A stretch of DNA of 64,000 nt from the human T2T-CHM13v2.0 reference genome, Homo sapiens, in NCBI RefSeq assembly GCF_009914755.1, contig NC_060929.1. One strand, given 5' to 3'. A program made the position numbers and the translations under genes. The notes under the pieces were generated by a model. It was given only the letters and a program-made list of their open reading frames with translations. It was not told where the DNA came from and made no database searches. The stretch's first letter is position 1. Every line of letters begins with the position of its first letter. Shown here in pieces: positions 22,391 to 53,000 of this stretch.

Positions 22391-23513
<1,123 letters not shown>

Positions 23514-24027
23514 AAAACTCCAGATCTTCTCATGGCATTCCTGTTAGTATAGAGTCCTAGCCCAGCTTCATCTCACATTGAGTCCAGTGGGTCTGCAGAC
23601 CTACCCTGGGTGCATAACTTTTACAGGTGTATCCAGAAGCTTATAGAACCCTCACATTGATTTCTTAAGCTATAAATTGAGAGACATTTTGAAACTGCTC
23701 CCCACTTCCACACAGCCAAGATTGTAAATCAGAGAAGTGATACTGCATTTGAGGAGAATACTAGAAATTAATGCCACCTACAAACAAATTTTATAGGAGT
23801 AGATGTCTCCAGGCTATCCCAGTTGGGTTCACTGGTATAACCTCTCCAAAAACCATAAAGAAGATGGTAGATAATGGTGCATTATAATAAAATTATTAAT
23901 GAGGTAGTCTCACTTGTAACTGCTGTTCAGATGCAGTATTTTGTACCCTGACACATGTTTTGTGGCTTTTCAATTCCCTTCCAAAAGAATCCCATTCACC
24001 TGGGATAGACAATAATACATATATTCA

Positions 24028-40147: not shown

Positions 40148-42611
40148 CTACAAAACAATAGGAGTTCTATAAATGGATGCTGAAATATAAAAATGCTGAA
40201 GTTCCTTCACTCAAGCATTGGCTTCCAAACTAGATGTTGAGTAATTCCTATTACCCTGGCTTGGGTCCTAATTTTGTGTCTGAATCTCCAGATTTTCTAA
40301 TCATTTTTTGAGCTAATTGATATTCAGCTCAAAATCCTCATGTAGCTCCAATAGTTAGTTTCTATTGCAACCCAGTACTCTGACTGATATATCTTATAAA
40401 GTACCAGTCAAATCAGAAAATGCCAATAAAACTTGCTGCTATTCAGTAGTCATTACATCTCAGGAGATTTACTGAAGTTCAAATAACCAAATGGATATGA
40501 CAGTTACTTACTTTCCAACATTTTCCTTCATCTCATCCCATCCCTCCACTGGGCATATATTTGGCTTCCAAAGCTCCACATGCCCATATTCTTTCCTCCT
40601 TCACAGATGAATTAAAAATGCTCATTTCTCCACAAAGCTATTTCTGAACGTTTCTCTTTTTCTTTGAACTTTCATAACTCTTTAACTAACATTTATATAG
40701 AACATTTCCCATGCTACTTTGTGGGGCAATTATTCATGCACATAATTCCTGAGGATAGGAATTATAAAGTATGTACATGAATTTCAAAAATATACCTATG
40801 GGACACTTCATAAATGTGAAAATAAAGTGATTGTGTTTTTTTAAATTAACCTGCACATGAAAATCATCAGATTTACTGTAAATCACAAAAGCCATCCCTA
40901 AAAAACATTGCAAAATTCCAATACACAGATTGTATCATCAGTTCTTCAGTACACAGGTTGTATCACCAGTTCTTTCAGGCCGGATGATAGAGTAAAAAGG
41001 GAATAAAGGGCTTAAAAGTGAATATGTGGGTTCAAATTTTAATTCATCACCTACTCAAGACTACCACTGAGTATTAGCTTTTATCTCTGAAAATTAGATC
41101 ATATATAGGGTTATCATCATTTTGTTGGAAAGTGTAAAAAAAAGAAGTGTAGCTTGTCTAGAAGACAGTAGAGAAAGAGTAAATGTTAGCTAATTCCCTT
41201 CAATATTTTCGAAAGTATAATAATATTTACAAAAGGCCAATTTGATCAAATAAAAAGCACCAAGTTATAGCATTATGGTGGGACTTAGATATTATTTAGC
41301 CCAAGGATGTATTAGTCAGAACTCCTTGCTTTGTTTCAATAGAACCAGATGAAGAAAATGTGTAAAAAGAAAAAAAAAGTAGAATCCATTTACTCATTTA
41401 ACAGATATTCACAAAGCACCTCTGTAGGCCAGGGACTGTGTGAGACTTCGGAATACCACAGTAGTAAGACAAACATGTTCTTTGTGTTAAGGTAAGTTAT
41501 AGCCCAACTCTCAAAGTAAATCAAAGTCAGGGTACAGGCAGGCCTCAGCAATTGCTTAGAATTAGATTTGAAAGACATTTTGGTCCTTGATGGCATGTCC
41601 TATTTTTCATCTCTTCTTGTGTATTTTTTCATTCTTAAGTCTGCAGATCAAATTTTCCATTTTCCAAAACACACCATACTACTTATAATTCTGCAGTTTA
41701 TAAACTACTATCTACAGATTCCCTCTCTCAATCTCCCCTTGTAGCAGAATCTGGTTGGCTAAGCTGGAGTCAGGAATGTTTTGCTCCAATCACCCATGAA
41801 AATGGGAAGCAGAGTTATGGTACACAATTTAGAATAGACTCAGTCCTGTGGATTTTGGATTGAAAAAGAAAGGAGTTCTTTGTGGTATGAGCAGGTACAA
41901 CCACATAGCTTTTATGCAAAGTATTTGAACTTCAAAATAGTAATTAACTTTCTGAAGGTCATGCAATTTGGCAATGGTGAAGCCCAGGAGGAAACTCACA
42001 TCGTTTAAATCCTAATTCAGTCCTCTTTCAACTTTGTTAGCATTGGAACAAGAAGTACCATCTCTGTTGGACATTTTCAGCTACCAATTAACACTAGCCT
42101 AACTTGATAGTAGGTGCTGAATGAGATACTAAATAATTGTAAAACATAGTACACATTCAGATGTAACTAATGTTTGTCAGGCACTGTGGTTTGATTCCTT
42201 CACATACATTTTATCTAGGAGCTTCCAATATGTTTGGTGGTATTCAGGGCCACACTATGTAAATGCAAGGGATAATGTAATTAAAAGTGAATATTTATAG
42301 TGCTTACTTTACTCTTGGAAGAAAATTATAAAAGGAATCACCAGGAACCAGAATAATTGCAATAAGCTTTAAGGAAAAGGTAAAATTTGACCTGGGTATT
42401 GAAGAGTGGCTAAGTTTAGTGCAGTGATAGAGGAGAATGAGGGGGTTATAGGCAGGGAATATTTCTGAGCAATGGTGCAGAGGTGAGAATGGGTGTATTT
42501 GGGGGGCTATGGTGAAGGGAAATTTGAAGGATTATAACTGAACAAAGCAGAAACATTCTGGTGAAAATTTTTGACTTAAGAATTCCAGAATTTAAAATTA
42601 TAAAATAGGTA

Positions 42612-42661: not shown

Positions 42662-45589
42662 TCACTTGTTTTATAATTTTTGGTGTTTAGCTAGTTGAAT
42701 GCAGTGTGCTCTTGCCAGCTCCTTGTGGTTTTCCAAAGTTTTGTACGTATTAAAAACTCCAAGTTTCTAAAAGCTCCAAGATGTTATTGGAAACATGTGG
42801 CAATATAAATGGCTGGAACTGCAAAGTGTTCAGCCTTTTCAACCTATGTATGGGCTAAAAATAGAGTAAACTGATTTTCAGACAAAACAATACTACTTAC
42901 CATGAAAGTAAGGAGGAGTAAGCGTATCTTTATATACCAGCTGTGTAAATTATAGCTAAGACAGAACTTCAGTCTTGGACAAGAGGGAAAAAAATCAATA
43001 TTAATCGACTCATACTTGTAATGGAAGGATGTGGTCATATAAAGTATTACTGGCTAGCACAGGATCACAGTCTGAGTTTGAAGACAGATGCTATATGTTT
43101 GCTATGGAAACAATAGACCGTAACATTGTATTTGATATGGAAAAATCAATCACAGTGTTAGCAGCTAGAAACTGCTCTACTTTGAGGTGAGAATACAAAG
43201 TACCTCAAGCAATTGTTAAACAGAAGAGGTTTCATGATTATTTAATAACTGGAAAGACCAAACCAATTAAAATATCATCTGTCAATACTTTTTCTAGGAT
43301 TTGTTTTTAGGAATAATAAATATTATCTCAAATCTATTATCTTGACCTAGATGACGACAATAGAGAAGTAAAAACCATCAGGACCAAATTTACATTTTCC
43401 AGCAGGAAGTGGTTTCAGATTTTATTTGGAGCTGGAAAAGGCCAAAGTTCCTTCAGGCATTTTTCTGGAATCTATCAGATAAAACTTCAGGCTTACAAAG
43501 GTTTGGCAGTGTGGATCTGAATCATCAAATAACAACCAGAGTGTACAAAGCCTGCAGGCTTCAGGAATCTGTTATGAATTCATCTCTGGCTGCGACCACA
43601 CACATGTGGTGAAATGGTACTCTACTGGAAGGATTCAGACATTTAATTCCCAATAGCTCATGCAGAAGCCATTGAGTATATTCAGTGCAGCTGGAAAATA
43701 GGCAGCCTTAGCCAGGAAAAGTGAGAGCTGAAGCTGGAAAGAGAGGTTGAGGCATTGAATACCTTCCTAAGGAGTCTACACTTAAAATCTAACAAGGCAA
43801 AGAATTCCCTCAGATTTTAAAATAAAGAAATTGTTCAAGCAAAAGTATATTTTAGAAAAATAGCCATGGTGACAATATGGACGATAAATATAGGGAGAAG
43901 AATCTGGAAACAGGAACCGTGTAGGAGTCTACAGCAATTTGCAAAATGTTTGATTTTAAGCAAGGACAGTTATTTTTGAAGAGAAGAAGGCAAAATTGGG
44001 GGTAGAAGGGAGTAGATAGAAAGGATTAATGTAGGCTAAAGAGGAAGGAATTGAAAATATTATAACATGGAAGTTTTTCCTTGTGAGTCTCATTAGCTAT
44101 TAAGATCTCCAAAGGATTTGGGAAGACACAATAATGAGAACCATTGCCAACAAATCTTATATTTTAGAGATTCAACATTAACTCTAACAATGTACGATGA
44201 TGAGCATTGAGGGGAGAAAGTATTAGGTTTATTTGACTTTTGCTTTAAATCCACGCTCGCCTTTTTACTGGCCTTTAAATCTGGAAATATTGCTTGACAT
44301 GACTGAGCTTCATTCCTTTAGCAACTTTAAAAATTGGAAAATAATATCTGACATTGTGATTGTGAAAACAAAGTGATATAATTAGTCACATGACCACCTT
44401 GTATTAAAGTAGATGTTAAGTAAATAGAACTAATATTAGTATTTTTAAAACTTCTAATTATAAAAAATAAATAATATATTGAATGAAACTTTGTAAAAAA
44501 CTATGTGATTTAAAAATTCTCTAAACATCAATAATTTATCTTAAAGAGAATGATTTTCACACTTAAGAAAACATGATTTTTTCTGTGTATGCTGTATAAA
44601 TATCCAAAAAGTATATAAAGTAAATAAATTCACAGCAGCTATTTTCAGAGTACAGTTAGAAAACAGAACTGTCTTCTTGTGTATGAAATTATTGACAATA
44701 TGTAATATGAGGTCCAGTTGTTTAATCCCCCATAAGTGACTTCTATTGTCCAGATGCCAATGGAATCTTATGGAAACAGCTAGGCCCTCAAATTCAGGAA
44801 TGTTCAGAAATCTCAGATAGTTTCAGATGTTATCTCCCTTGTTTCATGTTTACGGCCATTTGCAGAAAAATGAAACAAAAAAAAGAAAAGACATTTTCTC
44901 TATTCGTATACCTCCCTTACTTTTATGTCTATGACCAAGAAACTTTTTGGCATTAGGAAGCAGGCTTTCTAATATTATTTATTGTTAAAAGAAGAGCTGT
45001 CAGTTCCCAAAGACAGCATAAGAAAACATATTTATCAACTATTCTTCATGCATTCTTTTTCTTCTCCTTTTCCTGATTCTGATTTTTCTCCTAACTCAAC
45101 TTGGCTGAGAAGAAGTACACTATACTCCATAAAATAATTTGAGCTCTGCAGAAGATGTGAGAGGTATATAGGTTTATAACTACTTCCTTATTCTCCCCTC
45201 TAGCAAACATTTATAGACCTTAAACCTTACACTTGAAATCAGAGCTCGTTCTAAAATAAATACCACTTGTCAGTTTTTTCTGGTAATATCTCTACTTCAA
45301 CATTTTTATAAATACAGATCAGTTGAAACTATTTCTTACCCTAGAATATAATAGGGGATTTCTGTGAGCACTTTAATGCTTTCTCTGCTAAATCTAATAC
45401 ATCTAATTGTATAGCATATGCAAAAATTAGTTTGGTAAACTTCAACCCTCCCAAACTCATCTAGAGTTGTGCTAGCATATACTACAGAGTAATTAATTAC
45501 AGTGTATTGCCTATGCATAGTACTATGTCTTATGCATAGCATTACGTAGACACTTCAAAAATATTTTAATTATTAAAAGGAGAGTGAAG

Positions 45590-45800
45590 TATAAGGTAGT
45601 TACATAATCTTAAGCAAATTGCTTACTATTCTTGCCTAAATTTTCTTGTCTATAAAACAGGGGTAATAATAACACCTATCCTAATGGTAATTCTGAAATT
45701 AAATGAGATGATGCATATAAAGTGCTTAGAATAGCATGTAAGTGCTTTCTAAATATTAAATAAATAGTAAGTGCTTAATAAATATTAACTTTAACTATTA
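45590..45800 (+). mobile_element. MIR SINE
   Basis: ctataaaacaggggtaataataacacctatc...attaaatgagatgatgcatataaagtgcttagaa. Confidence 0.8.
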
Positions 45801-45804
45801 TCTA

Positions 45805-46125
45805 GATCACTACTCTCTGATAGAAAGATAATGTAACCCACATATATAATGTAAAATTTTCTAGTAGCTATATAAAAAATGTTAAAAAGAAAAGAAATCA
45901 GATAATTTTGGTAATATATTAACCTAATACATTAAAAATATTACATCAATATGTGATTAACATAAAAATTGTTAATGAGATATGTTACATTCTCTTTTTC
46001 ATACTACACTTACACAATTTTGTGTATATTTTACACTTAAAGTACATCCCAATTCAAACTGGCCACATTTCAAGTGATCAATTACTACATGTGGCTTATG
46101 ACTTCTACTTTAGACAGGACCAATC
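45805..46125. mobile_element. MER33/MER3-like hAT element
   Basis: aaattttctagtagc...ggccacatttcaagtgatcaattactacatgtggc. Confidence 0.75.
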
Positions 46126-48797
46126 TAGATGCTTATTAAATTTAGACATGAGGGACATGTAACTCTAAGAGAGCCATTTCTTTATAAATGGTTGCACAAA
46201 CCTCAAAAAGAAGAAGAAAAGGAAAAAGAAGACAAACAAGCTTTAGGGAATGTATTAGTATCAGGGTCCTGGTATTTTCTTATTAAGTGACCTTAGTAAA
46301 TACTGTGTTTCGAGTAAGTAAATAACACAAATATTGTTTGAATTTAGAAAAAGTAATTATCACTGCACTTTTTAGAAAAGTATGAAGTCTGCCATTATTT
46401 TAGAAAAAGTACATTCTTAAACTGGTAAACATAAATGGAATTCTGGAGTTAGCTTGGTTCTTAGGGAGTTAAAAAGACCCACATGGTGTTCAAAACGTTC
46501 TTAAAATATTTTTAAGAAAATGTGCTTTTGTTCTCACTGTGCTAAAGTACAAAAGCTCTCCTGAGGCACACCCTGGGCTTACCAGCTCAAGGCACTCTCT
46601 TAGGCAGTTAAAAAAAGAAAACCCCTACCTTCTCCTTGCTACATGAGCTGATTTCACAAGCCCTTTACACGCTTTATTTACTATTCATTTTCATCTTTGA
46701 GAGAGAAACTTGAAATATTTAATCACAGGATATTATTCTTTTAAAATGCTTGTTAAGCCAAGGATTTGGTAACTGGCAGAAAAAAAAGTGGCTACAACAG
46801 TCAGTTTAATTATTATCCCTGAAATTGCATTTTAAAATATTTTAATAATTAAAGAAGTTTTTGGAAAACCAAGCAAAGAACTAAGAGAATAAAGAGGCTC
46901 AAAAAATCCAAAGTAAGCCTGTCCGGTTGCATGTGTGTACACACACTTAATTCTTACATAAAGCCCAACAACATTAATCATGTCTGTAAAATGATAACCA
47001 CAACGACAGCTCTCGCTCTGCAGTCAGCCATACAAGGAAGCAGTTTCCAGCTATAACCCTCTACCATGAGCAAATAACTGACGAGCAGCGGTCCTTTTGT
47101 CAGATCCTGACAACTGAATCAATAAAAAGACACAGCAAAAGTTCAATCAGAACAGACACCACTAATACGACTGGCCTTTGGGGACCCACAGAAGCGTGGA
47201 ACTGCTTTTCCATGTTAATTTCTCTTCACTATCCCTTGGGGTTATCACCTTCTCTGGCCCCTGTTAATTAAAAACTGCCTCCTACTAAAGTTCCTTGGCA
47301 GGCATTTCCCTCGTGTCAGCCTATTCTGCTGACTGCTAAGAGAGGAAGAAATGAAGGAGGGAAGTGTTATGAAGCTGAGAATGTCACGATGCCAAAATCC
47401 TGCTCCTGTTCTCCCAGAAGACTGTGTGTATAATCAAATTTTTTATAGACTCATTTATAATAGTGGACTAACAAAAAATATCTAAGAACAATTAAAGATA
47501 ATACTATATCAAAGTCAAACATTAGTTGATAGCTATGTAGGCAAATCAGTAAGAGGTAGACAGTCTTGTCATACTATATTTTGGTTTAGCCTTATTTTGG
47601 AATTTGTTGAATTTAAGGAATTTTAATTACACATATATGTTTCTATTTGGTTACTGAAGATAACACTCACATTTTTGCACTCTTTCTCTTCCCATAACAG
47701 AGACAAACTTACTCCTACCTCTTTGCCAATTCCCAATTAACATCAAGATTGACCTTAAGGACCAGGTTACTTTTTATCTGTGTAAAAGCCTATAAGAAGA
47801 AATTTTTAGATTTAAAAAATGGCAGCTAGGTCCTTTTAACTATGTCAATGACAAACATGAATTATCTATAAGGCTAGGTGGTCACATTATTCCAAATTGA
47901 ATATCTGATTAAACATGCTTTTATTTTATACTAAAAATATAGTAATACATTTACACAATACAGAACTCCATACAGTAAAAAATAAAAGTCTCCTGGTACA
48001 TCAAGATTCTCCCAATCCTCTTGCCATCATTAATTATTACCAGCTTTTAGATTTTTGTTTACATTTATAAGCACACACATATAAATATATAATATTGTCT
48101 CATTACTTTTTTTAAAGTTTAAAAAAAGTAAAAATATTTTAATAACTGAAGAGGATTCCAGAATATGAATGAGTTGAAATTAATACAAATCATTCCCAAA
48201 GAAGAAATATTTAGTTCTGTCTAAACTTTTGCTCAAAAAATTTTGCTATGGTGACCAGCATTTCACAAATGCCTTTAAAACGTGTTTTAAAAATGATTTA
48301 TGTACGTGGTAAACATTCAAATAGATTTTCAGTGTGGACAATCCCTGTCTCTCTCAACAGGGAAAGTCATTCTCAGCAGTTTCTTCTGAATTTTTCAAGG
48401 GAGGCTGTGCTTTCAAGTGTGTATTTGAATAAATGCATTATATATATATGTATATAAATGTAGAAACACATATACACACATACACACATATACACATACA
48501 TTTTTTGATGCACAAGTGATACCATACACACTGTTCTACAAACTTGCTTCGTTTTATTTATATGGGGAAAAATGTTACAAATCAGCCCATATGGATTTCC
48601 TGTATTCATATTTATGTAACTTTGAAGGGGTAATATATTCATTGCTCAAATACATATAAGAAAAAATATAAAATGTTTTTGTGTGTAATATATAAGAATG
48701 TATTATGTTTTTATTTCTTTTAATAATTTTTAATATTTTTATGTTTTTTATTTTTTATTTTTAAATTTTTTAGTCATTACTTATATAACACAACCAT

Positions 48798-49156
48798 AAC
48801 ATATATCTTTTTTATTATTATACTTTTGTTATCATACTTTTTTATTATTATACTTTTTATTATTACACCAAGATTATGTCTGGAAACTGCTTCCTTGCAT
48901 GGCTGACTGCAGAGCAAGAGCTGTTGTTGTGGTTATCATTTAACAGACATGATGAATGTTGTTGGGCTTTATGTAAGAATTATTATATTTTATATTTATA
49001 CTTTTATTATTATACTTTATTATTATATATTATACTTTAATATAATACTTTTATTATTATACTTTAAGTTCTAGGGTACAGGTGAACAACATGCAGGTTT
49101 GTTACACAGGTATACATATGTCATGTTGCTTTGCTGCACCCAACATACATCTTTTT
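48798..49156 (-). mobile_element. Composite L1PA 3'-end insertion with reiterated tail and captured local DNA
   Basis: TSD AACATA(T/C)ATCTTTTT; L1PA 3' end at 49049-49142; inverted copy of 46948-47050 at 48880-48982. Confidence 0.9.
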
Positions 49157-50069
49157 TTTTTACTACTTGCCTTTTTGACTTAATATGTTCTGGAACTATG
49201 CATATATAGACTGATTTTATTCTGTTGAATTGCTAAGTAGTATTTCCTAATATGTATTCACTAAAATTCACAATAATTCACTGAATGAACATGTGATTTT
49301 CCTTTTATTTTTCATATTACAAAGAATAATTCAATAAAATATTTATAGATATATATAATATATATATTATATATATATATCTTTACATAAAATACCAAGT
49401 ATTTTTTCCAGTTACTTCCAAATCCAAATTTGGAAGGCAGACATTGACATATATTAAAATTTAAAAAATACTGCACAACTATTATTCAGAAAGGCCTTAA
49501 CAATTCTCCTCACACTAGCAATGTAAAGGTCACCCATTTCTTCATACTTTCTCCAACAATGGATATTATTATTCATTTAAATATTCTGCTTGTTGTAATT
49601 TGCAGGACTTCACTTAGTACCTGGGCTATTTAATCTGTTATATAATCTCAGCTGTATAATCCCTTGCAGATTTATAAACATCTGTTTTTCTATTAATATC
49701 TAGAATAAATCTCATTCTCCACCTCCTACCCAATAACACAAGATATAATAAGCCAACACTTCACAATCTTCCTCCAGTATTACTTGCAACCCATCACTAT
49801 TCCAGAATTATCTTGGATTTTTATTCCAAATTGTTATGGTCTTTATTACTTATAAATATTTTCTATGCTTTTAAATTCACCATTGTTCTTTGACTTATCT
49901 TCCCTAAATTATTAGTATTATTTTGTTGAAGTATTATTGATAATATTTTCAGAAAGAGGTTATGACTGGTAAGTTTACTGAGTTTCTAGATGTTCAAAAG
50001 ATGCTTTAATCTCACAATTGAGTTTTTTTTTATATTAGAGATAGAGTATAGATTAAAATACCTTTCTTG

Positions 50070-53000
50070 GAGTGACACTAGCAAGATTGTAGACTTGGAA
50101 GCTCCAAGCTCTCACTGCCATCATTGAAACATCAAGTAAATAACTATAGATGGACTACAGTAGCTCTATGGGAGCTTAGGAAACTAGTCAAGGATCTACA
50201 AAACCTAAGTGAACACCCAATCAGGAAAAAGTTACAGTCAAAATGGTAGAACATTTTATGATGGTTTTAGTCATGCTTACTCCATTCCTTCCCTGGAGCA
50301 GCATGGCCTGTCAGAAGGAACTTGTTTTTAACATTCTGGCCTTTTGTGGGTTGCCTGAGGGACTGATTTCTGTATCATCTGACTCACAGCTGAGATAAAA
50401 TGTTGGGCATAGTTTGCACTGAAGCCAGAGAATACTGTAGCAGGTGCTGTGGCATAGGAAAACTGCAGGAAGACTGCAGACCTACAGATGCCTGAAGGCA
50501 AGAGATTATAGGCAGAATAATATGATAGAATATATAAGGCTTCAAGAAGTAGGGTGAGACTTTTTGAAAAATTAAGAGATGTAAAGACAGCCCTGTAAAA
50601 GGGACAATTGAGAAAAAGTACACACATGGCATCAGAAAATTTGCATGCCCAGAAAAGGCTTGAGAAGACTTTAAGTCTCCATGTTAGACTAATTAATTAA
50701 GATCTTCCTCCCTTTCCATAGAACCAGTCTGCAAAAACTGGGTGAGTCCCTCTCAACACCCACAAAGCCCCAATTTTAAACAAAAGATCACAGGAATACC
50801 AGGAAACATGGAAACATGGCCCATTAAAGGAAAAAAAATAAATCTATAAATACAACCCTAATGAAACACAGGACTCTAACTTGACAAATTATTTAAAATG
50901 ATTGTCCTAAATATACTCATCGAACTAAAAGAGAACATAGACAACTAAGCAAAATTAGAAAAACAATTTATAAATGAAATAGGAAGATCAACAAAGAGAG
51001 AAATTATGAAAAAGATCAAAACAGGCAATTTGAAACTAAAAAATACAATAACTGAATTTAAAATTGTACTTAGAAGGATTCAACTTTGGGCTTAATTAGG
51101 CAGAAGAATCAATGGACTTGAGGAAAAATTATTTGAAATTATCAAGTCCAAGGAGCAAAATAACAATAATAAAGAATATAAACAGAGCCTGAGCGACTTA
51201 TGGAACACTGTCAAGCAGACCAATAGATATATTACAAGAATTCCAGAGAGAGAAGACAGAAAGATAGAGGCAGAGAGTTTATTTGATAAAATAATGGCTG
51301 AAACCCTCCAAAATTTGAGAAAAATAATCATTATACAAAAAAAAAAGCTCGTCAAATCCCAAGTAGGATAAACTGAAAGAGACTTACAACAACACACATT
51401 ATAATCAAACTTTCAAAACTCAAGCACAAAGAGAATCTTGGAAGAAACAAGAAAAAAGAAATTCATCACATAGAAGGAAGCTTTTATATGATTTTCAGTG
51501 GATTTTTTAGCAGAAACATTACCAGTCAGAAGGCAGTGGAATTACATATTTAATGTGCTAAAAGAAAAAATGTTGGCAACTAAGAACACTATAGCTGACA
51601 AACTTGTTCTTCAGAAATGAAGAAGAATGTAAGGCATTCCTAGATAAACAAAATTTGCGGGAGTTTGTTACTACTAGACCTTCCCTGCAAGAAATGTTGA
51701 AGGGAATTCTTCAAGTTGAAATGATGCTAGACAATAACTGGAACCCATATGAAAATATAAATTTTTCTGGTGAAAATAGATATTTGGGAAAATATAGAAA
51801 TGTGGATTATTATAATTTGGGTTCATAGTCTATTTTTAATTCTTTTATAGAATTTAAAAGAGAAAATCATTTTAAAAAACTACAGTGTTAATGAGTACAT
51901 AATATGTAAAGATGTAATTTGTGACATCAAAATATAAAGGGAGCAGAGCTGTAAAGAAATAGTAGAGTTTCGGATTGAAATCAAAGTTTAAAACAGTTAT
52001 AACTTTAAGCTGTTTTATGTAATCCCCATGATAAACACAAAGAAAACATCTGTAGAATATACACAAAAGAAAATGAGAATGGAGTCACATTTTGTCAGCA
52101 TTAAAAAATCAACTAAACAAAAAGGAAAGCTGTAAGGGAGGAAATGAGGGACAAACAAAGTCAAAAAGCAAGAAAAACAATGATCAAAATGGTGGTAGTC
52201 TTTGTCTCTATCAGTAAATATGTTAAATAAGAATGGAGTAAACTCCTCAATCAGAAAATGTAGATTGGCTGAATGAATGATAAAACAGAATTTCCCTATG
52301 TGCTATCTACAAGAGACTCATTTTAGATCTAAGATATACATAGATTGAAATTGAAAGCCTTGAAAAAGATATTTCTGTGCAAATAGTAACCAAAATAGAA
52401 CATGGGATGGCTACCTTAATGTCAAACAAAATATGTTTTAGCTCAAAAACTATTACAGGAGACGAAGAAGGACATTGTATAATGATAAAAGGGTCAATTT
52501 TCCAAGAAGATGTAACATTTATAAACACAGATACACTAAACATAAGAACTTCTAAATATATGCAGCAAACATTCACTGAATTGATGGGAGAAATAGAAAG
52601 ATCTATAATAATAGTAGGAGACTTCAACACCTCACTTTCAATAATGAATAGTACAACCAGACAGATGATCAATAAAGGAATAGAGAACTTAACACTAGAA
52701 AATAATCGGATCTAACTGACATATACTGAATACTCCACCCATCAACAGCAGAATATGCATTTTTCTCAAACGTGTATTTTGCTGTTGATGGATGGAGTGT
52801 TAGAACATTTTCCAGAATAGACTATATGTTGTGCTACAAAACAAGTGTTAATAAATGTAAAAAGATTGCAATTATACATTTTTTTCTGATCACAATGAAA
52901 TGAAACTAGAAATCAGTAGCAATTACAAATTAAAAGATCCACAAATATGTGGAAATTATACAACCCATTCTTAGACAACCAATCAGTTAAAAAAAATCAT

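What the first reader, a model, noticed from the sequence alone, without database searches (positions are those of the whole stretch)
48798..49156. Stuttering L1 insertion that captured 103 bp of nearby DNA in inverted orientation inside its tail
Between TSDs AACATATATCTTTTT (48798) and AACATACATCTTTTT (49142) lie, in order: 3-4 copies of the L1 terminal motif TTATTATTATACTTT; a reverse-complement copy of 46948-47050 (48880-48982, 5 mismatches in 103); several more partial terminal motifs; and only ~95 bp of L1PA 3' end. Read in cDNA order, this suggests repeated abortive priming on the L1 RNA 3' end, a jump onto a local template 1.8 kb away (DNA or nascent RNA), then a return to L1. It is not a normal 3' transduction because the donor is at the target locus and has no adjacent L1. 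Local templated patches are usually described at L1 5' junctions, so one inside a reiterated 3' end is unusual.
Basis: partly seen in the sequence, partly recalled or inferred. Interest (0 to 1): 0.8.

Follow-up and report, generated by a model that had tools for sequence, protein, structure and literature searches.

The report
Stuttering L1 insertion with inverted patch
A tiny, old L1 retrotransposon insertion on human chromosome 5 carries about ten stuttered copies of its own last 10-13 bases and, among them, a backwards copy of 109 bases from 1.8 kb away; it looks like a fossil of a copying enzyme switching templates, but one genome cannot show whether it all happened in one event.

Summary
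The anatomy is real. Between target-site duplications (48798-48813 and 49142-49161) lie four copies of the L1 terminal 10-mer, a 109-bp inverted copy of 46948-47056 (7 mismatches; core 103 bp, 5 mismatches), six more terminal units, and 89 nt of L1 3' end on the minus strand.

The donor is single-copy in the whole T2T genome, matches no Rfam family and has no L1 beside it. So the patch is neither a dispersed repeat nor a 3' transduction. Reiterated L1 termini are close to unique genome-wide.

The strands constrain the template. The patch must have been copied from plus-strand sequence, which is the priming strand itself 1.76 kb upstream (a snap-back). Nascent RNA of the annotated minus-strand lncRNA cannot be the template.

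The best reading (about 0.45) is one aberrant target-primed reverse transcription event. Recent L1 overexpression work reports templated genomic insertions and local inverted duplications.

The main rival (about 0.35) is a later replication or repair-templated insertion into an AT-rich array. A small-sample clock comparison leans that way (L1 body 5.6-7.9% against 2.4-3.2% per lineage for the patch; p 0.04-0.25). No primate orthologs were available, so timing stays open. Interest is moderate.

The parts
46948..47056 (+). Donor: single-copy DNA whose plus-strand sequence was the template for the patch (core 46948-47050).
   Evidence: BLAST. The whole-genome search finds only this place and the patch (211-bp query; 1401-bp query). 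No Rfam match overlaps it. No L1-like sequence lies nearby. The boundaries carry no AG/GT splice signals (read).
48798..48813 (+). Left target-site duplication, AACATATATC+T6. Its T run is the TPRT primer end (plus strand = first-strand cDNA strand).
   Evidence: The pre-insertion site reconstructed from TSD2 ends TTTT/AC, an L1 endonuclease-type site.
48814..48868 (+). Left array: four reiterated copies of the L1 terminal 10-mer, separated by T4-T6 (ATTATTATAC, GTTATCATAC, ATTATTATAC, ATTATTACAC).
   Evidence: TRF period 14-16, about 4 copies; hand parse printed from the window; motif search.
48869..48873 (+). Entry junction filler, CAAGA, of unknown origin. There is no clear microhomology.
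   Evidence: The 17-mer spanning it has no other match in the window at <=3 mismatches.
48874..48982 (+). Patch: inverted copy of 46948-47056 (109 bp, 7 mismatches; core 48880-48982, 103 bp, 5 mismatches). The last 4 nt, ATTA (48979-48982), are shared with the next L1 unit (exit microhomology).
48979..49052 (+). Right array: six further reiterated or partial L1 terminal units, separated by T0-T4 (ATTATTATAT, ATATTTATAC, ATTATTATAC, ATTATTATAT, ATTATAC, AATATAATAC).
   Evidence: TRF periods 13 and 34; parse; motif search. The offset-47 self-similarity of 83% has no shared derived variants.
49053..49141 (-). 5'-truncated L1 (older L1PA-type) 3' end, 89 nt, sense on the minus strand.
   Evidence: 83% identical to the L1 end at 23395-23488. 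It differs at 7-25 of 89 positions from 29 genomic L1 3' ends. It is the only L1-like stretch in 45000-50500.
49142..49161 (+). Right target-site duplication, AACATACATC+T10.

Best explanation
This is one aberrant L1 target-primed reverse transcription event. Steps marked shown are read from the sequence; the rest are inferred.

1. L1 endonuclease nicked the plus strand at TTTT/AC (shown: TSDs and site).
2. The T-run primed at the very end of an L1 RNA, leaving almost no poly(A) (shown: only T6 beside TSD1 against T10 in TSD2).
3. The enzyme copied only the last 10-13 nt. The nascent ...ATACTTT end then slipped back onto the A-run and restarted. This happened four times (inferred from the four units with T4-T6 spacers).
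4. The 3' end then left the RNA and, after about 5 nt of filler, copied 109 nt of plus-strand DNA lying 1.76-1.87 kb upstream on the same strand. This is a snap-back and needs that stretch to be single-stranded, for example after resection (orientation shown; template molecule inferred).
5. The end ...GAATTA re-annealed to the L1 RNA terminus through ATTA (4-nt overlap shown).
6. It stuttered six more times, finally ran 89 nt into L1, and was joined to the second nick.

A plus-sense local RNA as template is not excluded.
For: - Anatomy in cDNA order on one strand, all L1-derived parts in one orientation and enclosed by a single TSD pair.
- The donor is unique in the genome, so its closeness to the insertion is not chance.
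- Two rarities sit at one site. Reiterated L1 termini are near-absent elsewhere:
  - 0 hits for a terminal unit directly before an intact L1 end.
  - 0 hits for two exact 13-mers 0-4 nt apart.
  - 5 hits for a looser pattern, 2 of them this locus, against 4 hits for the reversed control.
  - Among 197 hits at <=3 mismatches for an idealised two-unit pattern, 100 rows were listed. Three are this locus. I saw context for only 2 of the roughly 7 others that keep an AC-type first unit: L061 is a possible single extra unit and L067 is not L1. The rest are T- or ATT-rich tails.
- The 29 other L1 ends inspected show no reiteration.
- Unit deviations (9 of 90 nt) are similar to those of the L1 body (5-7 of 89), as expected if the units are as old as the L1.
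- Published biochemistry: purified ORF2p polymerises on DNA as well as RNA templates, extends 5-6-nt primers, adds untemplated bases and jumps templates (PMC10830420, passages).
- Published cell data: L1 overexpression yields TSD-flanked complex insertions with templated genomic DNA, local inverted duplications, and self-annealing of the RT end after kilobase-scale resection (PMC11702581, passages).
Against: - Timing is untested because no ortholog was available.
- The patch and donor differ by only 2.4-3.2% per lineage, while the L1 body has 5.6-7.9% private differences. The one-sided conditional binomial gives p 0.04-0.25. With the array units added, p is 0.009-0.025.
  - Caveats: the L1 reference is the majority base of 29 mixed copies; the units may have been miscopied at birth; gene conversion between donor and patch could lower their divergence.
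- If RT stutter were an ordinary low-rate process, single-unit stutters should outnumber a ten-unit one. Almost none were found.
- The entry junction shows no microhomology.
- A nick alone does not expose the upstream strand, so extra assumptions (resection or a replication fork) are needed.
Confidence: 0.45

Rival explanations
1. Two steps. The L1 fragment, with or without its reiterated tail, inserted first. Millions of years later, a stalled fork or break inside the AT-rich array was repaired by a template switch (FoSTeS/MMBIR or snap-back synthesis by a host polymerase). This copied 109 nt from 1.8 kb away in inverted orientation and returned through the ATTA microhomology.
For: - Clock comparison: L1-derived parts are 5.6-8.4% from their reference, against 2.4-3.2% per lineage for the patch (p 0.009-0.25 depending on what is counted).
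- The patch sits between whole units of an array that continues on both sides.
- The exit junction has 4-nt microhomology.
- The inverted orientation and kilobase-range template fit replication-based switching. For those mechanisms I saw only search listings and abstract starts (PMC2621351, PMC5453318, PMC11724301).
- L1 tails are known seeds of unstable tandem repeats (PMC3812793, passages).
Against: - It needs two independent rarities at one 250-bp site: an array type found essentially nowhere else, and a 109-bp long-range templated insertion.
- Both CpGs of the patch have decayed in the copy, which hints at considerable age.
- The clock difference rests on 5-7 against 5-7 substitutions.
- The templated inverted insertions in the abstract seen for yeast breaks are mostly about 5-34 bp (PMC11724301, abstract start).
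Confidence: 0.35
2. One later replication accident. An ordinary 89-nt L1 insertion existed first. A single episode of serial replication slippage or template switching at its T-run and terminal motif then produced both the ten reiterations and the inverted patch.
For: - It explains why array and patch occur together with one event.
- It allows a patch younger than the L1 body.
- TTT direct repeats flank the 10-mer, a substrate for slippage.
Against: - Unit deviations (9 of 90) look as old as the L1 body, not as young as the patch, unless synthesis was error-prone.
- No other L1 end among those searched shows even the first slippage step.
Confidence: 0.1
3. RNA chimera. Within one TPRT event, the RT switched from L1 RNA to a plus-sense local transcript covering 46948-47056 and then back, as in U6/L1-type chimeric retrocopies.
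For: - ORF2p jumps between templates (PMC10830420).
- Chimeras made by template switching are catalogued (10.1101/2025.02.02.635956, passages).
- Switching at the very start of reverse transcription has been proposed (PMC2912911, passages).
Against: - No plus-strand gene is annotated here. The only overlapping gene is on the minus strand (hub table).
- No Rfam family overlaps the donor.
- The donor boundaries have no splice signals.
- A trans RNA gives no reason for the 1.8-kb closeness.
- Known chimeras put the foreign RNA 5' of the L1 part, not inside its tail.
Confidence: 0.07

Closest known systems
Complex L1-mediated insertions with templated genomic DNA and local inverted duplications (L1 overexpression in cultured cells; PMC11702581, passages read)
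   Same: TSDs, an EN-type site and reverse-transcribed sequence occur together with a local genomic segment copied in inverted orientation. That paper invokes self-annealing of the primary RT end after kilobase resection.
   Different: This case is a fixed germline fossil. The patch lies inside a ten-fold reiteration of the L1 terminus rather than at the 5' junction or target flank. I could not see that paper's figures or supplements, so closer examples may exist there.
Template slippage at the 3' tail repeats of stringent-type LINEs (eel UnaL2 TGTAA repeats; mosquito SINE 'slippage retrotransposition'; PMC3747384, passages, and its reference list)
   Same: The last few nucleotides of the template are copied repeatedly at the start of TPRT.
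   Different: Those elements end in short tandem repeats that are part of their normal tail. Human L1 ends in poly(A). A 10-13-nt unit reiterated ten times is not its normal behaviour and is nearly unique in this genome.
U6/L1 and other chimeric retrocopies made by RT template switching (10.1101/2025.02.02.635956; PMC2912911)
   Same: One TSD-flanked insertion is built from more than one template.
   Different: In those, the foreign part is an abundant RNA placed 5' of the L1 segment. Here the foreign part is unique local sequence inside the tail, and the enzyme returns to the L1 template afterwards.
L1 3' transduction
   Same: Unique non-L1 sequence lies 3' of the L1 body within the TSDs.
   Different: No source L1 lies next to the donor. 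The unique segment is followed by more L1 termini instead of a simple poly(A). The donor lies at the target locus.
Replication-based template switching (FoSTeS/MMBIR, short template switches; PMC2621351, PMC5453318, listings and abstracts only)
   Same: A nearby sequence is copied in inverted orientation, with microhomology at the return junction.
   Different: Those events need no retrotransposon. Short template switches usually act over far shorter distances and lengths (recalled, not checked here).

Membership tests
Endonuclease-dependent L1 TPRT insertion | Target-site duplication of about 7-20 bp flanking the whole insert | tested here: met
   AACATATATC+T6 against AACATACATC+T10, placed exactly at the two ends. 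Background frequency is 2e-6 per position pair.
Endonuclease-dependent L1 TPRT insertion | T-rich/A nick site (TTTT/A type) on the priming strand | tested here: met
   The empty site inferred from TSD2 plus its flank reads ...ATCTTTTTTTTTT/ACTACTTG. The consensus motif itself is recalled and also quoted in PMC11702581.
Endonuclease-dependent L1 TPRT insertion | L1 3'-terminal sequence adjoining the primer end | tested here: met
   49053-49141 aligns to 29 of 29 fetched L1 3' ends with 7-25 differences in 89 columns and to the L1 at 23395-23488.
Endonuclease-dependent L1 TPRT insertion | Poly(A) tail between the L1 end and the TSD | tested here: not met
   Only T6 lies next to TSD1, fewer than the T10 of TSD2. 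The T runs between units are 0-6 nt. Old tails shrink, so this is weak evidence.
L1 3' transduction | The transduced segment lies immediately downstream of a source L1 at the donor locus | tested here: not met
   No similarity to 59 loci holding L1 3' ends anywhere in 45000-48978. Those loci cover at most the last roughly 1.5 kb of L1.
Chimeric retrocopy by RNA template switch (U6/L1 type) | Foreign part derives from a cellular RNA and sits 5' of the L1 part | tested here: not met
   The foreign part lies 3' of the L1 body in the L1 sense. No Rfam family overlaps the donor. No plus-strand gene is annotated (hub table).
Twin-priming 5' inversion | The inverted segment is L1 sequence primed from the second nick | tested here: not met
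   The inverted segment is unique non-L1 DNA. All L1-derived parts share one orientation.
Complex TPRT insertion with a local templated inverted duplication | A local genomic segment duplicated in inverted orientation inside a TSD-flanked, reverse-transcribed insert | tested here: met
Complex TPRT insertion with a local templated inverted duplication | All parts arose in the same insertion event | not testable with these tools
   No primate or other human assembly is available here (one search states that the genome has no relatives held). The clock comparison is inconclusive.
Replication or repair template switch (FoSTeS/MMBIR/SRS) | Microhomology at both switch junctions | tested here: inconclusive
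   Exit junction: 4 nt, ATTA. Entry junction: 5-nt filler and two adjacent mismatches, with no clear microhomology.
   Only 2 places in 3.1 Gb, for both the 211-bp and 1401-bp queries. The tool warns that counts for very common words are lower bounds.

The most novel reading that the evidence does not exclude
The locus is a germline fossil of a single L1 integration. ORF2p, starting on an L1 RNA with almost no poly(A), aborted and re-primed about ten times on the last 10-13 nt. Midway it snapped back onto its own primer strand 1.8 kb upstream and copied 109 nt of DNA before returning to the RNA. That would record, in natural evolution, DNA-templated snap-back synthesis and kilobase-scale exposure of the target strand during the initiation phase of TPRT. 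It would also show that human L1 can undergo the 3'-terminal template slippage so far tied to stringent-type LINEs.
Probability: 0.45. Interest if true: 0.55.

Novelty: new variant of a known kind. Interest (0 to 1): 0.4.

Why it matters
If this was a single event, it shows that the complex outcomes seen when L1 is overexpressed in cultured cells also reach the germline and become fixed. Those outcomes are template switching, DNA-templated synthesis and local inverted duplication. It also adds a behaviour not described for human L1 in the texts I could search: repeated abortive initiation on its own terminus.

It gives a concrete search image for mining T2T primate genomes, namely TSD-flanked tails holding reiterated termini plus a nearby inverted match.

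If instead the patch came later, the locus is an example of an L1-derived AT-rich array attracting a long-range template switch. That is of more limited interest. Either way it is one non-coding locus with no sign of function.

Tried and rejected
- Dispersed repeat: rejected. The donor has 2 places genome-wide.
- Known small RNA as donor: no Rfam match overlaps 46948-47056. The seven weak hits in 46500-49500 all lie at 48401-48511 and are below gathering scores.
- 3' transduction from an L1 at the donor: rejected.
- Twin priming: rejected on orientation and content.
- Composite tail inherited from a source element: rejected, because the donor lies 1.8 kb from the insertion and occurs nowhere else.
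- Higher-order repeat in the right array as proof of later duplication: TRF reports period 34 and offset 47 gives 83% identity. The paired units share no derived variant, so this shows nothing.
- Local origin of the 5-nt filler: none found in the window.
- A source lineage sharing this copy's private L1 changes:
  - In the first half, the best other copies have 2 of 36 mismatches (15 such; 247 hits at <=3).
  - In the second half, two copies have 1 mismatch (1,138 hits at <=3).
  - The variants recur singly in a few percent of copies, as parallel mutation would give, so no lineage is evident.
- Primate orthologs, human polymorphism, RepeatMasker/Dfam subfamily calls: no tool here offers them.
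- Literature: five searches found no description of a reiterated human L1 3' terminus holding a local inverted patch. Subscription journals, figures and supplements were not searchable.

Full report
**What is there**

Reading 48500-49400 and 46750-47250 and parsing the stretch from the window itself gives the following order on the plus strand.
- TSD1: AACATATATC+T6 (48798-48813).
- Four copies of the 10-mer ATTATTATAC or near variants, spaced by T4-T6 (48814-48868).
- Five bases, CAAGA, of unknown origin (48869-48873).
- A 109-bp segment (48874-48982).
- Six more units, one only 7 nt, spaced by T0-T4 (48979-49052; the first four bases, ATTA, overlap the segment).
- 89 nt of L1 3' end read in antisense (49053-49141).
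- TSD2: AACATACATC+T10 (49142-49161).

The L1 is therefore on the minus strand. The plus strand is the strand that L1 endonuclease nicks and extends as first-strand cDNA. The empty site inferred from TSD2 ends in TTTT/AC.

**Is it more than chance?**

- BLAST of the region against the whole window finds 48874-48982 as the reverse complement of 46948-47056. The match is 109 bp with 7 mismatches, E 5.6e-43.
The two further mismatches are adjacent, at the entry end.
- Seven of the window's 21 matches to the 10-mer (<=1 mismatch) lie in this 250-bp stretch, all on one strand. Shuffles of the whole 64 kb give 9.6 on average.
- TRF reports the arrays.
- Pairs of 15-mers 200-600 nt apart with at least 14 identical bases occur at 2e-6 per pair in this window. 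The TSDs, which sit exactly at the two ends of the L1-derived material, are therefore not chance.
- The L1 identity of 49053-49141 rests on 83% identity to the L1 end at 23395-23488 and on alignment to 29 of 29 other genomic L1 3' ends (7-25 differences in 89 columns).

**What the donor is not**

- A 211-bp query and a 1401-bp query around the donor each find exactly two places in the 3.1-Gb assembly: the donor and the patch. The tool warns that very common words are skipped, but a dispersed repeat would not give this result.
- No Rfam family overlaps the donor. The weak sub-threshold hits all lie in a simple repeat at 48401-48511.
- In 45000-50500 only 48979-49145 resembles any of 59 fetched loci holding L1 3' ends. 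No source L1 sits next to the donor, so the structure is not a 3' transduction.
- The donor boundaries carry no AG/GT signals.

**How unusual is the stutter?**

Whole-genome pattern searches gave the following.
- A terminal unit directly before an intact L1 end: 0 hits.
- Two exact 13-mers 0-4 nt apart: 0 hits.
- One exact 13-mer followed within 0-4 nt by ATTATTA: 5 hits, 2 of them this locus, against 4 hits for the reversed control.
  - One of the other three (L033, contig C2) is a young L1. A distal ATTATTATACTTT there is separated from the true terminus by about 95 bp of TTATTA/TTTA-type microsatellite.
- The window's own 27-mer (unit end + T4 + L1 end) at <=2 mismatches: 377 hits. I looked at this locus and 29 others; none of the 29 shows reiteration. 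They are L1 ends preceded by T-rich tails or unrelated sequence.
- An idealised two-unit pattern at <=3 mismatches: 197 hits against 11 for the control, with 100 rows listed.
  - Three rows are this locus.
  - About 7 other rows keep an AC-type first unit. I saw the context of 2 of them. L061 (contig C18) shows one possible extra partial unit, and L067 is not L1.
  - The rest are T- or ATT-rich tails.

A ten-fold reiteration of the L1 terminus is thus unique, or nearly so, at the stringencies tried. Heavily mutated arrays could have been missed.

**Strand logic**

The patch on the plus strand is the reverse complement of the donor's plus strand. The polymerase that wrote it therefore read a template with the donor's plus-strand sequence. 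That is physically the same strand as the primer, 1,757-1,865 nt 5' of the nick, so the copy is a snap-back. The alternatives are the same strand of a sister or homologue, or a plus-sense RNA.

The only annotated gene over the window (LOC124901056, hub table) is on the minus strand. Its nascent RNA would give the opposite orientation.

**Junctions**

- Exit: the patch ends ...GTAAGAATTA. The last four bases are also the first four of the next L1 unit, giving a 4-nt overlap.
- Entry: five bases of filler, then two adjacent mismatches within the first ten copied bases. There is no clear microhomology. The 17-mer across the junction has no other source in the window.

**One event or several?**

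This is the real question and the tools do not settle it, because no primate or second human assembly is available (one search says the genome has no relatives held).

I tried an internal clock.
- The L1 body departs from the majority base of 29 other L1 3' ends at 7 positions. One is a CpG site and one is a position that varies among copies, so the count is 5-7 of 89 (5.6-7.9%).
- Genome-wide searches with the two halves of the fragment show these variants recurring singly in a few percent of copies. No evident source lineage shares them.
- Patch and donor differ at 5 of 103 or 7 of 109 positions, which is 2.4-3.2% per lineage.
- Conditional binomial tests give one-sided p of 0.04-0.25 for body against patch. 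With the 9 substitutions in 90 nt of array units added, p is 0.009-0.025.

This leans towards a patch younger than the L1, with several limits.
- The counts are tiny.
- The L1 reference is crude.
- The units may have been miscopied at birth.
- Gene conversion between the inverted copies would lower their divergence.
- Both CpGs of the segment have decayed in the copy, which suggests real age.

Against the two-step view stands the coincidence of two events that are each very rare genome-wide, within one 250-bp site. That coincidence is weakened if an AT-rich array is itself fragile.

**Mechanism and precedent**

- Purified ORF2p polymerises on DNA and RNA templates, uses 5-6-nt primers, adds untemplated bases and jumps templates (PMC10830420; passages read).
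- Cells overexpressing L1 yield TSD-flanked complex insertions. These arise from template-switching RT and carry templated genomic DNA insertions and local deletions, inversions and inverted duplications. Self-annealing of the RT end after resection of more than 6 kb is proposed (PMC11702581; passages read; figures and supplements not seen).
- Template slippage on terminal repeats is described for the eel LINE UnaL2 and a mosquito SINE (PMC3747384, passages and reference list; PMC1636434, listing only).
- Known L1 chimeras put the foreign RNA 5' of the L1 part (10.1101/2025.02.02.635956, passages).
- Rival replication mechanisms (MMBIR, short template switches, foldback insertions at breaks) I know only from listings and abstract starts and from recall.

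**Verdict**

The template is more likely the primer strand's own DNA than nascent RNA.
- Simultaneity is unproven and mildly contradicted by the clock.
- I put a single aberrant TPRT event at about 0.45. A later templated insertion into an existing array is about 0.35. One later replication accident making both arrays and patch is about 0.10. An RNA-templated chimera is about 0.07.
- This is a new variant of a known kind (complex L1 insertions), of moderate interest. The ten-fold stutter of a human L1 terminus is the most unusual feature.
- Five literature searches found no description of such a structure. The library lacks most subscription journals, and supplements of the key preprint were not open.
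- L1 subfamily ages that I might quote are recalled, not checked, so I give none.

Noticed in passing
window 48401-48511: A stretch on the minus strand gives sub-threshold Rfam hits to mir-297, mir-466, mir-1277 and others (best 42.7 bits against a gathering score of 90). This pattern is typical of TG/TA-type simple repeats rather than a real miRNA.
   Followed up: no
window 48650-48776: T-rich low-complexity DNA (TRF periods 6-15) lies directly upstream of TSD1. On the minus strand it reads as an A-rich tract, so the L1 landed at the edge of an A/T-rich region.
   Followed up: partly
window 23395-23510 and 41212-41240: Two other L1 3' termini lie in the window. One is plus-sense, at the end of the masked block 22399-23524. 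The other is a short terminal-motif match on the minus strand. Neither has a reiterated terminus.
   Followed up: partly
L033 (G000:C2:223617052-223620071), match at C2:223618552-223618571, minus strand: A young L1 3' end has its true terminus preceded by about 95 bp of TTATTA/TTTA-type microsatellite and then a second, distal ATTATTATACTTT. It is the only other candidate for a repeated terminal motif found with the pattern.
   Followed up: partly
L061 (G000:C18:28043550-28046576), match at C18:28045050-28045076: A young L1 end reads ATGATTATAC-T7-ATTATAC-TTT. It may be a single extra partial terminal unit, or it may be chance target sequence.
   Followed up: no
window 46948-47056 and 48874-48982: The event left a 103-109-bp inverted repeat with a 1.8-kb spacer in an intron of a predicted lncRNA. 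I saw no sign of function.
   Followed up: no
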